A stretch of DNA of 23,307 bases from Escherichia coli (GTDB lineage Bacteria; Pseudomonadota; Gammaproteobacteria; Enterobacterales; Enterobacteriaceae). Where the stretch lies: NCBI RefSeq assembly GCF_003334255.1, contig NZ_QOWU01000066.1. The stretch is one strand, 5' to 3'. This document shows, piece after piece, positions 3,001 to 6,000 of this stretch. A program made the position numbers. The first letter of the stretch is position 1; each line of letters begins with the position of its first letter.

Positions 3001-6000
3001 TCTGGGTAACCTCGCCCTGCAATACGCGAAGAATGTCTTTAACGCCAAAGTGATCGCCATTGATGTCAATGATGAGCAGTTAAAACTGGCAACCGAAATG
3101 GGCGCAGATTTAGCGATTAACTCACACACCGAAGACGCCGCCAAAATTGTGCAGGAGAAAACTGGTGGCGCTCACGCTGCGGTGGTAACAGCGGTAGCTA
3201 AAGCTGCGTTTAACTCGGCAGTTGATGCTGTCCGTGCAGGCGGTCGTGTTGTGGCTGTCGGTCTACCGCCGGAGTCTATGAGCCTGGATATCCCACGTCT
3301 TGTGCTGGATGGTATTGAAGTGGTCGGTTCGCTGGTCGGCACGCGCCAGGATTTAACTGAAGCCTTCCAGTTTGCCGCCGAAGGTAAAGTGGTGCCGAAA
3401 GTCGCCCTGCGTCCGTTAGCGGACATCAACACCATCTTTACTGAGATGGAAGAAGGCAAAATCCGTGGCCGCATGGTGATTGATTTCCGTCACTAAGAGG
3501 CCTTTGCTGCGACTGCCATGTTCGGGTCGCAGCATCGCACACTCTCCAACATGAAATGGCTAAATGGATTATTGTTGCGTAGGAAGGAACAATAATGATA
3601 GTGTTCCCAGTGAAGGAACGCTACTGAGAGTAAAGACACTAATGAAAATGGCCAATCATCCCCGCCCGGGGGACATTATTCAGGAATCACTGGACGAACT
3701 TAATGTCAGCCTGCGCGAGTTTGCCAGAGCAATGGAAATTGCTCCCTCAACGGCAAGCCGATTGCTGACAGGAAAAGCAGCTTTGACGCCAGAAATGGCG
3801 ATTAAACTTTCCGTGGTGATCGGCAGTTCGCCGCAAATGTGGCTGAATCTGCAAAACGCCTGGAGTCTGGCAGAGGCAGAAAAAACAGTGGATGTGTCGC
3901 GATTACGCCGTCTGGTTACGCAATAAAAAAATGGCACTTTATAAAGCGCCATTTAGAACTGATGACAAACGCAACATTGCCTGATGCGCTACGCTTATCA
4001 GGCCTACACGTTCACTGCAATCTATTGGATTTGAAGGGTTTTCATGCCGGATAAGGCGTTCACGCCGCATCCGGCATGAACAAAGCCTACGTTGTCTACA
4101 ATATGAAAATGGCGCCTTTTACAGCGCCATTTTCAGCTTAAAGTTCAAAAGAGATTATATCCCTTCTTCACTCTCTTTTTTCGCTTCTGCCTTCTCGATT
4201 TCACGATACCAGCGCGGATGGTGTTTCTTCGCCCAGCGACGACTTACCTTCCCTTCGATCATCCCTTTAATCGATCCTTTCACCCAAAATGCCATATACA
4301 TATGGATCAGGATGGCGTGGATCAGGATGATACCCGCAGCCGCGTGGATCAGCAGGCTGTAGCGAACAACCTGCATCGGGAAGTACTGCGCAAAGTACGG
4401 ACGCCAGATAATCACCCCGGTCACCAGCAGCACGAAAATCATGCTCATGATCGACCAGAACATCATCTTTTGCCCGGCGTTGTACTTACCGACATCCGCC
4501 ACTTTATGCTCATTGCCTTTCAATACTTCGACAATGTTCAACAGCCACGGAATATCTTTCTTATCCGGGATGTTGTGATGCACAAAACGCACAAACATAA
4601 ACATCAGTGCGACGAAAATCGCAATGCCGAAGAACGGGTGCAAAATGCGTCCCATCTGCGGCGTACCGAAGGTTTGCGTCAGCCATTGCAGCGTCGGGAA
4701 GAAGAACGAAATCCCGGACAGCGCCACCAGGAAGAAGCAAATCACCACGGTCCAGTGACAGGCGCGATCAATAAATTTGGTGCGCACAATCATTTTCGAC
4801 TTACTCATGATGATCCTCCTCGTCATCGTCCACTTCCTTATTCGGGCCAATACCGATGTAGTGGAAAATCAACCCGGCAAAAGTGGCAATAAAGCCAGCC
4901 GCTGCCAGCGGTTTCAACGCGCCTTTCCACAGGCTTACCGAGGTGTCGATCTTCGGATCTTTCGGCAGACCGTGATACAGCTCCGGCTGATCGGCGTGAT
5001 GCAGCACGTACATAACGTGCGTACCACCGACCCCTTCCGGGTTGTAGACGCCAGCATGTTCGTAACCACGCGCTTTCAGTTTCGCCACGCGCTGTTCCGC
5101 CAGCTCCAGCATCTCCTTCTTGGTGCCGAAGTGGATAGCCCCGGTCGGACAGGTTTTCACACAAGCCGGTTCCTGGCCGACGCTGACGCGATCGACGCAG
5201 AGCGTGCATTTATATACCCGGTTATCCTCTTTGTTGAGGCGCGGAATATTAAACGGACACCCGGCAATGCAGTAACCACAGCCGATGCAGTTTTCCGACT
5301 GGAAATCGACAATCCCGTTAGCGTACTGAATGATTGCACCAGCAGACGGGCACGCCTTCAGGCAGCCGGGATCTTCACAGTGCATACAGCCGTCTTTACG
5401 GATCAGCCACTCCAGCTTGCCGTTCTGTTCGGTTTCGCTAAAGCGCATCACCGTCCAGGACTTGGCGCTCAGATCGGCGGGGTTATCGTAAACCCCGACG
5501 CAGTGCCCCACTTCATCACGGATGTCGTTCCACTCCGAACACGCCACCTGACAGGCTTTACAGCCGATACAGGTGGAAACGTCGATAAGTTTTGCGACTT
5601 CTGCTTTGTAATCACGCACCTGAGAAGGCGGCGTGATGGAGTTAGTTGCGGACCTTTTGATAATGTCCTGCGTTTCCATAGCCATCTGTTCGCCCCCTTA
5701 CGCCTTCTCGATGTTGACTAAGAACGCTTTATATTCCGGCGTTTGCGAGTTTGCATCACCGACATTCGGCGTCAGAGTGTTAGCGATATAACCTTTACGC
5801 GCGACACCCTCAAAGCCCCAGTGGATTGGAATACCCACCGTTTCAACCTGCTGACCATTTACATTCAGCGGTTTCAGACGACGCGTTACCACAGCCACCG
5901 CGCGGATAAAGCCACGCTTGCTGGAGACAGTGACACGATCGCCATTATTAATGCCTTTCGCCGCCGCCAGCGTTTCGCTGATTTCCACAAACTGTTCCGG

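What the first reader, a model, noticed from the sequence alone, without database searches (positions are those of the whole stretch)
3979..4076. Paired REP/BIME elements at two convergent-gene junctions
Two near-identical REP pairs sit at 3979-4076 (between yddM and fdnI) and 21189-21264 (between yddE and nhoA). Each combines a GCCTGATGCG...CAGGCCTAC-type and a GCCGGATAAGGCG...CATCCGGCA-type palindrome. Both lie where convergent transcripts end, the typical BIME niche for mRNA 3'-end stabilisation and gyrase/IHF binding. The two copies are potential substrates for recombination across about 17 kb.
Basis: partly seen in the sequence, partly recalled or inferred. Interest (0 to 1): 0.25.

Follow-up and report, generated by a model that had tools for sequence, protein, structure and literature searches.

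The report
E. coli BIME-1 palindromic repeat elements
Both stretches are ordinary, long-known E. coli REP/BIME palindromic repeats, but the first is a complete 151-base mobile copy that landed in a shared transcription terminator and duplicated the whole terminator hairpin, a footprint that recurs at many other copies and hints at how these elements insert.

Summary
The REP pairs are real and far beyond chance, and both sit between convergent genes (yddM/fdnI, yddE/nhoA). They are not near-identical. Locus 1 is a full-length BIME-1 (3955-4105): outer motif, z1 REP, 34-nt L linker with an IHF-like core, y REP, outer motif. Locus 2 (21189-21264) is an old, almost fixed, decayed doublet. It has lost 23 nt of linker including the IHF core, its z1 hairpin no longer folds better than shuffles, and it has no outer motifs.

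Locus 1 is an insertion polymorphism. About 42% of 5,426 E. coli genomes carry an empty site with one bidirectional terminator hairpin. The window has one copy, and about 23% (including K-12 MG1655) have two tandem 178-nt units. The insertion is flanked by a direct duplication of the 27-nt terminator hairpin, perfect in O157:H7. The same hairpin duplication abuts 25 sampled BIME-1 copies in three genera, and empty sites confirm it at aspC-gloC and uvrB-yvcK.

No genome shows the proposed 17-kb recombination. Gyrase enrichment belongs to BIME-2, not to these elements.

Verdict: a known element class. The hairpin-duplication footprint may be an unreported clue to the insertion mechanism.

The parts
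3928..3954 (.). Left copy of the duplicated terminator hairpin (target-site duplication), AAAATGGCACTTTATAAAGCGCCATTT. It starts 1 nt after the yddM stop codon (3924-3926).
   Evidence: Direct repeat D4 with 178-nt spacing. It folds at -10.2 kcal/mol, z = -4.3. On the minus strand it scores as an intrinsic terminator with a T-run. Empty alleles carry a single hairpin here. Both copies are identical 27/27 in O157:H7.
3955..3978 (+). Left outer motif of BIME-1 (AGAACTGATGACAAACGCAACATT; family consensus GAGACTGATGACAAACGCAACATT).
   Evidence: The same motif precedes z1 in dozens of copies from E. coli, E. albertii and Pseudocitrobacter and at the aspC locus. A 29-nt exact match occurs at other loci in E. 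coli genomes.
3979..4007 (+). z1-type REP. On the + strand it is the inverted form ending in CTAC; GTAG is intact on the - strand.
   Evidence: Exact pattern match. Hairpin -13.2 kcal/mol, z = -3.8. Nomenclature from PMC3333891.
4008..4041 (.). L-type linker, with an IHF-like core at 4018-4030 (minus strand ATCCAATAGATTG).
   Evidence: It aligns with the family linker consensus AAGGTTTCTGCAATATATTGAATTTGCACGATTTT. Against the IHF consensus, the family consensus has 1 mismatch and this copy has 2.
4042..4076 (+). y-type REP. Its 5' GTAG tetranucleotide is replaced by TCAT (4042-4045), which extends the stem to TTCATGCCGG...CCGGCATGAA.
   Evidence: Pattern match. Hairpin -27.7 kcal/mol, z = -7.7. 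The O157:H7, PBP8 and DG341-1 alleles keep GTAGG.
4077..4105 (+). Right outer motif of BIME-1 (TGAACAAAGCCTACGTTGTCTACAATATG; consensus TGAACAAAGCGCACTTTGTCAGCAATCTG). It is an imperfect inverted repeat of the left outer motif.
   Evidence: Family comparison. Element length is 151 nt here, against 152 nt in 32 of 42 full-length copies.
4106..4132 (.). Right copy of the duplicated terminator hairpin, AAAATGGCGCCTTTTACAGCGCCATTT. The fdnI stop codon is at 4155-4157 on the minus strand.
   Evidence: D4. Hairpin -18.7 kcal/mol, z = -7.8. It abuts the element end at distance 0.
21189..21217 (+). Degenerate z1-like REP, 7 nt after the yddE stop codon (21179-21181).
   Evidence: 3 mismatches to the pattern. 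Fold is not better than shuffles, z = -0.65. Other strains carry the canonical GCCTGATGCGCTTCGCTTATCAGGCCTAC here.
21218..21229 (.). Residual 12-nt linker, a remnant of a 35-nt L-type linker after a 23-nt deletion.
   Evidence: Strain Survcare321 keeps AGCCGCATCGTAATTTATTGAATATATTGGCTAAT at this position, including an IHF-like core. The window linker has no IHF-like site.
21230..21264 (+). y-type REP with GTAG mutated to GTAT (21230-21233). It ends 12 nt before the nhoA stop codon (21277-21279, minus strand).
   Evidence: Pattern match. Hairpin -21.9 kcal/mol, z = -4.4. Distances to the stop codons. No intrinsic terminator is detected in this intergenic region.

Best explanation
Both features are BIME-1-type REP doublets of E. 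coli, that is, non-autonomous and once-mobile palindromic DNA.

Locus 1 is a complete 151-nt BIME-1: outer motif, z1, L linker with an IHF-like core, y, outer motif. It inserted into the single bidirectional terminator shared by yddM and fdnI. The insertion duplicated the whole 27-nt terminator hairpin, so one copy now flanks each end of the element. Unequal exchange between the two hairpin copies later produced the tandem two-unit allele of K-12, and a separate deletion removed the right hairpin in E. coli B.

Locus 2 is a much older, nearly fixed doublet of the same architecture that is decaying in this lineage. It has lost the linker and IHF core, its z1 stem is weakened, and its GTAG is mutated.

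Inferred, not shown:
- Integration proceeds by staggered cuts at the two feet of the target hairpin, one on each strand and 5' of the stem, followed by gap repair. This would explain why the duplication length tracks the hairpin size (13-39 nt).
- Once in place, the REP hairpins lie in the 3' untranslated region of read-through transcripts and may modulate termination or decay. At locus 1 this role is dispensable.
For: Identity:
- Exact or near-exact matches to the z1 and y consensus, with strong hairpins.
- The family consensus, including outer motifs and the L linker, was recovered from 120 loci. Modal length is 152 nt.
- The BIME-1 definition (z1 + y + L, IHF site) is from PMC3333891. A size of about 140 bp and presence/absence among isolates is from PMC1187871.

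Insertion at locus 1:
- Empty alleles have a 50-nt intergenic region with one hairpin (STEC1589, KOr019, JNE181771).
- About 2,284 genomes match the empty hairpin at 95% identity or better.
- 2,467 genomes carry the filled left junction.
- 1,246 genomes carry the exact hybrid junction of the tandem duplication, which is also present in MG1655.
- The flanking repeat is 27/27 identical in O157:H7.

Generality of the hairpin duplication:
- 24 of 42 full-length copies have a direct repeat abutting both ends, mostly at distance 0, against a 1% permutation threshold.
- With relaxed criteria, 25 copies in E. coli, E. albertii and Pseudocitrobacter show it. Duplication length is 13-39 nt (median 22). 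Mean fold energy is -12.5 kcal/mol, against -3.0 for control segments.
- 18 of those 25 lie between convergent ORF 3' ends.
- Empty versus filled alleles confirm it at aspC-gloC and uvrB-yvcK.

Locus 2:
- It is collinear in 5,165 of 5,426 genomes.
- A divergent strain retains the 35-nt linker and canonical REPs.

Enzyme plausibility:
- TnpA_REP cleaves 5' of REP hairpins on both strands and at both sides of the inverted REP in vitro, forming a 5'-phosphotyrosine intermediate (PMC3333891).
Against: - No enzyme, IHF binding or transcript end was tested here.
- In vitro, TnpA_REP needs a C|T dinucleotide and a GTAG-tagged REP. The inferred target cuts lie in A/T runs at the hairpin feet, which does not match that specificity.
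- 18 of 42 full-length copies show no detectable flanking repeat. This could be age and decay, or a second insertion route.
- The sample is dominated by Pseudocitrobacter.
- In the window, the y REP of locus 1 lacks GTAG and the outer motifs are diverged. This copy is probably no longer mobile.
- The whole element does not fold into one long hairpin here.
Confidence: 0.8

Rival explanations
1. One reading: the elements are maintained because they stabilise the 3' ends of the convergent mRNAs and organise DNA by binding IHF and gyrase.
For: - Both sit at convergent 3' ends.
- Locus 2 has no intrinsic terminator. Its REPs begin 7 and 12 nt from the stop codons, so they are the only 3' structures, and the locus is retained in 95% of genomes.
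- Convergent pairs with REPs show higher expression genome-wide (preprint 10.64898/2026.03.23.713779).
- Locus 1 has an IHF-like core.
Against: - Locus 1 is missing from about 42% of genomes, with no substitute beyond the original terminator.
- At locus 2 the z1 hairpin has decayed to background stability and the IHF core is deleted.
- Gyrase preference belongs to BIME-2.
- The same preprint found no half-life difference for REP-bearing convergent genes.
Confidence: 0.3
2. The two direct-orientation copies act as substrates for homologous recombination that deletes or duplicates the 17-kb fdn-nar segment.
For: The copies are in direct orientation, 17,188-17,210 nt apart, with a 33-nt y REP matching at 97%. 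REP-mediated duplications are known in Salmonella (own knowledge, not checked here).
Against: - 0 of 5,426 complete genomes have the yddM flank within about 1 kb of the nhoA flank.
- The longest identical run is 17 nt, read from the alignment. That is below the roughly 23-27 bp usually quoted for efficient RecA-dependent exchange in E. coli (own knowledge).
Confidence: 0.05
3. The hairpin repeats flanking locus 1 come from a local tandem duplication or unequal crossing-over unrelated to BIME insertion, and the single-hairpin alleles are secondary deletions.
For: Unequal exchange does happen here. MG1655 and about 1,246 genomes carry a second 178-nt unit with a hybrid hairpin. PBP8 shows conversion between the two copies.
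Against: - The same arrangement, a locus-specific hairpin duplicated exactly at both ends of a 152-nt element, recurs at about 20 independent loci in three genera.
- The empty-site hairpin loop (CTTCTTAAAG) is not a chimera of the two flanking copies.
Confidence: 0.05
4. The palindromes are ordinary terminators or chance inverted repeats, not members of a repeat family.
For: None beyond their position at gene ends.
Against: Exact consensus matches, with none found in shuffles. There are tens of copies per genome, and the architecture is conserved across genera.
Confidence: 0.01

Closest known systems
BIME-1 (also called RIP or RIB elements) of E. coli: z1 and y palindromic units separated by the L motif and flanked by outer motifs
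   Same: Locus 1 has every sequence component in the right order and at the right size (151 nt, against a modal 152). It is extragenic, at 3' ends, and present or absent among isolates, as reported for BIME-1. Locus 2 shares the z1/y head-to-head architecture and, in a divergent strain, the L-type linker.
   Different: At locus 1 the y REP has lost GTAG, and the IHF core is one mismatch worse than the family consensus. BIME-1 is described as single-copy per locus, but K-12 has two tandem units here. Locus 2 in the window lacks the L linker, the IHF core and the outer motifs.
REPIN-RAYT systems (REP doublets mobilised by a single-copy REP-associated tyrosine transposase)
   Same: Two inverted REPs with a spacer, tens to hundreds of copies, vertically inherited, with slow turnover and visible mutational decay.
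   Different: In the papers I could search, the REPIN literature does not describe target-site duplications or terminator targeting. Here the mobile unit is larger than the doublet because it includes the outer motifs, and it leaves a hairpin-sized duplication. RAYT dependence was not tested.
Bacterial MITEs with a central IHF site, such as the Neisseria Correia element
   Same: About 150 nt, terminal inverted repeats, a central IHF site, intergenic, flanked by a target duplication (for general MITE features and for the Correia IHF site).
   Different: MITE duplications have a fixed short length set by a DDE transposase. Here the duplication is 13-39 nt and equals a whole hairpin. A 2011 review states that REPs 'do not display MITE signatures' (PMC3184786).
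CRISPR repeat duplication during spacer integration by Cas1-Cas2 with IHF (mechanistic analogy only; own knowledge)
   Same: Staggered attacks at the two borders of a palindromic repeat, on opposite strands, duplicate the entire palindrome around the inserted DNA. IHF bending assists in E. coli.
   Different: Different enzyme, a different substrate (33-nt spacers), and a single dedicated target locus. No evidence links Cas1-Cas2 to BIMEs.
IS200/IS605 family (IS608, ISDra2), relatives of RAYT
   Same: Subterminal hairpins recognised as single-stranded DNA by a Y1 HUH enzyme that cuts at the hairpin feet.
   Different: These insertion sequences generate no target duplication and have no terminal inverted repeats. 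BIME-1 shows both.

Membership tests
REP / palindromic unit (E. coli y and z1 types) | 30-40 nt imperfect palindrome matching the y or z1 consensus | tested here: met
   z1 at locus 1 has 0 mismatches to the pattern; z1-like at locus 2 has 3. GCCGGATAAGGCG is exact at both loci. Three of the four hairpins are significant; the locus-2 z1 is not.
REP / palindromic unit (E. coli y and z1 types) | Conserved GTAG tetranucleotide 5' of the palindrome, required for TnpA_REP binding and cleavage (PMC3333891) | tested here: inconclusive
   Both z1 copies keep CTAC on the + strand, which is GTAG on the - strand. Both y copies have lost it in the window: TCAT at 4042-4045 and GTAT at 21230-21233. It is intact in other strains.
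REP / palindromic unit (E. coli y and z1 types) | Extragenic and highly repeated in the genome | tested here: met
   Both lie in intergenic regions. The median is 19-28 megablast places per genome in 5,426 genomes.
BIME-1 | One z1 and one y unit in inverted, head-to-head orientation | tested here: met
   Both loci read ...CTAC-linker-GTAG-like....
BIME-1 | Long, conserved L linker (about 35 nt) carrying an IHF consensus | tested here: met
   This row is for locus 1. The linker is 34 nt and aligns to the family consensus. Its IHF core has 2 mismatches, against 1 for the family consensus.
BIME-1 | Long, conserved L linker (locus 2 in the window) | tested here: not met
   The linker is 12 nt with no IHF-like site. 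A 35-nt L-type linker survives in strain Survcare321, so the absence here is a secondary 23-nt deletion.
BIME-1 | Outer flanking motifs, giving a unit of about 145-152 nt | tested here: met
   For locus 1: 3955-3978 and 4077-4105 match the outer consensus, and the total is 151 nt. For locus 2 no recognisable outer motifs were found, by my reading, so this feature is not met there.
BIME-1 | IHF actually binds the linker | not testable with these tools
   Only the sequence match to the consensus could be scored.
REPIN-RAYT system | Mobilisation depends on a cognate RAYT (TnpA_REP) in the same genome | not testable with these tools
MITE (classical, DDE-mobilised) | Terminal inverted repeats plus a target-site duplication of fixed short length | tested here: not met
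   Imperfect terminal inverted repeats are present (GAGACTGATGACAAA / CAGATTGCTGACAAA). The duplication, however, varies from 13 to 39 nt and equals the target hairpin.
BIME-2 | y and z2 units with short S linkers in tandem arrays; strong gyrase sites | tested here: not met
   Both left-hand units have the short z1 loop (8 nt between GCCTGATGCG and ATCAGGC), not the longer z2 form. There is no tandem array of REPs in the window.

The most novel reading that the evidence does not exclude
BIME-1 may be a 152-nt MITE-like element whose integration is aimed at intrinsic, mostly bidirectional, terminator hairpins. On this reading it duplicates the entire hairpin, giving a structure-defined target-site duplication of 13-39 nt. 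That implies staggered cleavage at the two feet of a hairpin or cruciform, plausibly by RAYT, with IHF folding the element.

This would explain three things: why REP/BIME elements accumulate between convergent genes, why they rarely damage neighbouring genes (each side keeps a copy of the hairpin stem-loop), and why BIME-1 keeps a central IHF site.

I found no description of this footprint in the papers I could search. The key 1990s papers (Bachellier et al. 1997 Genetics; Boccard & Prentki 1993) were not available, so prior description cannot be excluded.
Probability: 0.45. Interest if true: 0.65.

Novelty: already known. Interest (0 to 1): 0.35.

Why it matters
As reported, the finding is routine. 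REP/BIME elements have been catalogued in E. coli for decades, and these two sit in a well-studied K-12 region. The value of the re-examination is threefold.

First, it corrects the functional gloss. Only one of the two elements can plausibly bind IHF, neither is a typical gyrase site, one is dispensable in nearly half the species, and the 17-kb recombination idea has no support in 5,426 genomes.

Second, it documents a clean 0/1/2-copy natural polymorphism at yddM-fdnI. That is a ready-made isogenic series for testing what a BIME-1 does to termination and mRNA decay.

Third, it exposes a reproducible insertion footprint, the duplication of a whole terminator hairpin. A 2026 preprint still calls the REP insertion mechanism 'not fully established'. 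The footprint turns that open question into concrete predictions about target choice, cut positions and the role of IHF.

Tried and rejected
- Rfam scan of the whole window. No REP/BIME family exists there, and the only hit was the fdnG SECIS.
- RefSeq feature table of MG1655 for REP annotations. None was listed, so EcoCyc REP names could not be attached.
- First z1 pattern search had the wrong loop length (9 instead of 8) and found nothing. It was corrected.
- Chimeric-junction search for a natural 17-kb deletion. Zero hits.
- Using the empty-hairpin query to count alleles by coverage failed, because it also aligns to the right-hand hairpin of filled alleles at 90.6%. Identity bands were used instead.
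- The hybrid-junction query also hit single-copy O157-type alleles at 98%. Only the >=99% identity band was taken as evidence of two units.
- Folding the whole 151-nt element as one long hairpin, as the REPIN model predicts. The minimum-energy fold keeps separate REP hairpins, because the outer motifs are diverged in this copy.
- Reading Bachellier et al. 1997 and Boccard & Prentki 1993. Neither is held. The Liang & Deutscher paper on REPs near stop codons was not found, so the 7- and 12-nt stop-to-REP distances at locus 2 remain only a lead.
- Considered and rejected for the hairpin duplication:
  - A DDE-type MITE mechanism, because the duplication length is not fixed.
  - Single-strand 'peel and paste' as in IS608, because it predicts no duplication.
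  - Cruciform resolution to hairpin-capped ends, because by my reasoning (not a computation) each end would then carry only one arm of the palindrome.
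Full report
**What the window is.** The window matches E. coli chromosomes at 100% identity (strains 300709, EC416, BN01) and runs antiparallel to the K-12 map. The gene order is maeA, adhP, yddM> <fdnI-fdnH-fdnG, yddG..., narU-narZ-narY-narW-narV, yddE> <nhoA, yddH. It is not MG1655 itself. The yddM-fdnI spacer is 228 nt here and 406 nt in MG1655.

**Checking the observation.** Locus 1 holds an exact z1-type REP at 3979-4007 and an inverted y-type REP at 4044-4076. Locus 2 holds a z1-like copy at 21189-21217 and a y copy at 21232-21264.
- None of 100 dinucleotide-preserving shuffles reproduces these matches.
- There are no further copies in the window.
- Three of the four units fold far better than shuffles (z = -3.8, -7.7, -4.4). 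The locus-2 z1-like unit does not (z = -0.65).
- The two loci are not near-identical. The y units match 32/33 and the z units 27/32. The spacer between them is 36 nt at locus 1 and 14 nt at locus 2, and the pairwise alignment has a 22-column gap.
- Both loci lie between convergent genes.

Its 'near-identical' claim is overstated, and the stated extent of locus 1 is too small.

**What locus 1 is.** A scan of species-representative genomes for CAGGCCTAC-N25-45-GCCGGATAAGGCG returned 120 loci, mostly from E. coli, E. albertii and Pseudocitrobacter. Aligning them by eye and by script gives this consensus:

GAGACTGATGACAAACGCAACATT | GCCTGATGCGCTACGCTTATCAGGCCTAC | AAGGTTTCTGCAATATATTGAATTTGCACGATTTT | GTAGGCCGGATAAGGCGTTTACGCCGCATCCGGCA | TGAACAAAGCGCACTTTGTCAGCAATCTG

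- Copies with both outer motifs are 152 nt long in 32 of 42 cases.
- This is BIME-1 as defined in the literature: z1 plus y, separated by a conserved long linker L that often carries an IHF site (PMC3333891). It is about 140 bp and is present or absent among isolates (PMC1187871).
- The window copy spans 3955-4105 (151 nt) and has all the parts.
- Its linker core (4018-4030, minus strand ATCCAATAGATTG) has two mismatches to WATCAANNNNTTR. The family consensus has one.
- The left outer motif also occurs next to z1 at the aspC locus.

**Locus 1 is an insertion polymorphism with a hairpin-sized target duplication.** The repeat finder reported a 34-nt direct repeat, 3921-3954 versus 4099-4132, with 178-nt spacing. 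Each copy is a terminator-like hairpin, and the left one scores as an intrinsic terminator on the minus strand. The locus exists in several states across 5,426 complete genomes.
- **Empty.** The intergenic region is 50 nt with a single hairpin, AAAAAAATGGCGCTTCTTAAAGCGCCATTTTCAGC (STEC1589, KOr019, JNE181771). About 2,284 genomes match this form at 95% identity or better.
- **One unit.** This is the window's state. 2,467 genomes match the filled left junction over at least 80% of the query.
- **Two tandem 178-nt units.** MG1655 has this form. The exact hybrid junction occurs in 1,246 genomes.
- **One unit with the right hairpin deleted.** E. coli B.

The element boundaries fall exactly between the repeat copies. 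The left copy is 3928-3954, the element 3955-4105 and the right copy 4106-4132. In O157:H7 the two copies are identical, 27/27 (AAAATGGCGCCTTTTACAGCGCCATTT). In the window lineage the left copy has diverged. The empty-site loop is not a chimera of the two copies, which argues that the empty allele is not a recent excision product.

**The footprint is general.**
- Among 42 full-length copies, 24 have a direct repeat abutting both ends. The distance is 0 at the left end for 16 of them and at the right end for 17. The permutation control has a 99th percentile of 10.5.
- With relaxed criteria, and excluding tandem arrays, 25 copies show the repeat: 3 E. coli loci plus the window, 5 E. albertii and 16 Pseudocitrobacter. 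Some of these are orthologous pairs.
- The repeats are 13-39 nt long (median 22) and locus-specific. Several Pseudocitrobacter copies are 100% identical. They fold at a mean of -12.5 kcal/mol, against -3.0 for control segments.
- Each repeat is a GC-rich stem-loop plus one to three A/T pairs at its base. The left copy keeps the upstream A-run and the right copy keeps the downstream T-run.
- 18 of the 25 lie between convergent long ORFs that end 14-92 nt away.
- Two more E. coli loci have natural empty alleles. aspC-gloC spans 430 versus 601 nt, with the single hairpin AGCCCGCTGAAAAGCGGGCT. uvrB-yvcK spans 474 versus 648 nt.

**How insertion most likely works (inferred).** A duplication whose length equals the palindrome and whose ends are symmetric about its dyad is what staggered cuts at the two feet of the hairpin would give. 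The proposed sequence has three steps.
- Each strand is cut 5' of its own stem.
- The element's 3'-OH ends join to the 5' overhangs.
- The gaps are then filled.

The chemistry fits a Y1 HUH enzyme. TnpA_REP (RAYT) cuts 5' of REP hairpins on both strands, and on both sides of inverted REPs, through a 5'-phosphotyrosine intermediate. A central IHF bend would bring the ends of a 152-bp element together. This would parallel other small elements with IHF sites and CRISPR spacer integration (own knowledge).

There are three points against this model:
- In vitro, TnpA_REP needs a C|T dinucleotide and a GTAG-tagged REP. The inferred cuts lie in A/T runs.
- 18 of the 42 full-length copies lack a detectable repeat.

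**Consequences for transcription.** After insertion, the hairpin copy nearest each gene keeps only 2-4 T residues before the element begins. The far copy keeps the full T-run. Read-through from either gene would therefore carry the BIME-1 in its 3' UTR and stop at the distal copy. This is an inference from sequence; no 3' ends were mapped.

**Changes specific to the window lineage at locus 1.** The y REP has TCAT where other alleles have GTAG. That is three substitutions within four bases. They make TTCATGCCGG the exact complement of CCGGCATGAA on the other arm. This looks like a hairpin-templated (quasipalindrome) correction. Because GTAG is required for TnpA_REP binding and cleavage in vitro, this y unit is probably no longer a substrate.

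**What locus 2 is.** The locus is collinear in 5,165 of 5,426 genomes, so it is old and nearly fixed. Aligning six diverged strains shows the following.
- Other lineages carry the canonical z1 (GCCTGATGCGCTTCGCTTATCAGGCCTAC) and an intact GTAGG.
- Strain Survcare321 keeps a 35-nt linker, AGCCGCATCGTAATTTATTGAATATATTGGCTAAT. Its core matches the family L linker and the IHF consensus as well as the family consensus does.
- The window lineage has a 23-nt linker deletion, substitutions that weaken the z1 stem, and GTAG changed to GTAT.

No outer motifs or flanking repeats are recognisable. Locus 2 is therefore a decayed BIME-1-type doublet. No intrinsic terminator is detected in this spacer. The REPs start 7 nt after the yddE stop codon and 12 nt after the nhoA stop codon, so they are the only 3' structures for both genes. 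REPs within about 15 nt of a stop codon have been reported to affect translation termination (Liang & Deutscher 2015, from my own knowledge; the paper was not retrievable).

- **REP/BIME identity and the convergent-gene niche:** supported.
- **IHF:** plausible for locus 1 only.
- **Gyrase:** enrichment is documented for BIME-2 (y plus z2), not for z1/y elements.
- **mRNA stabilisation:** untested. A 2026 preprint finds higher expression but no half-life difference for REP-bearing convergent genes. Locus 1 is dispensable in about 42% of genomes.
- **Recombination across 17 kb:** a chimeric query joining the yddM flank to the nhoA flank found no genome in which the two lie together (0 of 5,426). 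The longest identical run between the loci is 17 nt, read from the alignment.

**Novelty.** The elements themselves are already known. I searched the available papers for any description of terminator-hairpin duplication at BIME-1, REP or REPIN insertion sites and found none.
- A 2011 review states that REPs 'do not display MITE signatures'.
- The 2012 TnpA_REP paper's text was searched for 'duplicat', 'direct repeat' and 'empty' and had no hits.
- A 2026 preprint calls the insertion mechanism not fully established.

The 1990s papers that sequenced BIME-1-lacking alleles are not held. Prior description of the flanking repeats at individual loci therefore remains possible.

**Scores.** The finding as reported is ordinary. 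The follow-up adds a testable clue to a long-standing question. Overall interest is 0.35. The novel reading has a probability of about 0.45 of being both correct and unreported, and would merit about 0.65 if true.

Noticed in passing
window 8105-8163 (minus strand): Rfam SECIS_3 selenocysteine insertion element (84.3 bits) inside fdnG. It explains why the fdnG reading frame appears as two ORFs (5698-8109 and 8158-8745) split by an in-frame TGA.
   Followed up: no
window 3497-3926, compared with L004 and L006: yddM is annotated as a HigA-family antitoxin. Many E. coli strains (for example ST131, KOr019, DG341-1) have a RelE/ParE-family toxin gene directly upstream and overlapping its start. The window and K-12 lack that gene, so yddM is an orphan antitoxin here.
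   Followed up: partly
L001 20993-21398 (MG1655) and L003 (E. coli B): K-12 MG1655 carries two tandem 178-nt units (hairpin plus BIME-1) at yddM-fdnI, with a hybrid middle hairpin, although BIME-1 is described as single-copy per locus. E. coli B has one unit but has lost the right-hand hairpin through a 34-nt deletion.
   Followed up: yes
window 4042-4045 and 4077-4080: Three substitutions in four bases turn GTAG into TCAT. This makes the y REP stem a longer perfect palindrome (TTCATGCCGG / CCGGCATGAA). It looks like a hairpin-templated (quasipalindrome) mutation and removes the tetranucleotide that RAYT needs.
   Followed up: partly
L007 and L008, positions about 401-460 (aspC downstream region): In some strains an IS621 (IS110 family) copy is inserted inside the z1 REP of the aspC BIME-1, at ...ATCAGGCCT|TGTATT.... 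This is consistent with the known REP targeting of this insertion sequence.
   Followed up: no
L138 (strain PBP8), right junction of the yddM-fdnI element: The last bases of the element read CAATAAAAAAATGG, as at the left flank, instead of CAATATGAAAATGG. This suggests gene conversion between the two duplicated hairpin regions.
   Followed up: no
L011 (Bacteroidales MAG) and L115 (Desulfosporosinus sp. OT, 262-nt contig): Short contigs assigned to unrelated phyla carry enterobacterial REP doublets (a perfect L-linker BIME-1 in L115, a short-linker z1/y pair in L011). L011 shares its flank with the E. albertii locus L017. These are probably enterobacterial contamination in those assemblies.
   Followed up: no
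L084, L087, L099, L101 and others (Pseudocitrobacter): Many Pseudocitrobacter BIME-1 copies are near-consensus with 100% identical flanking hairpin duplications. This suggests recent or ongoing BIME-1 activity in that genus, which would make it a good system for studying mobility.
   Followed up: partly
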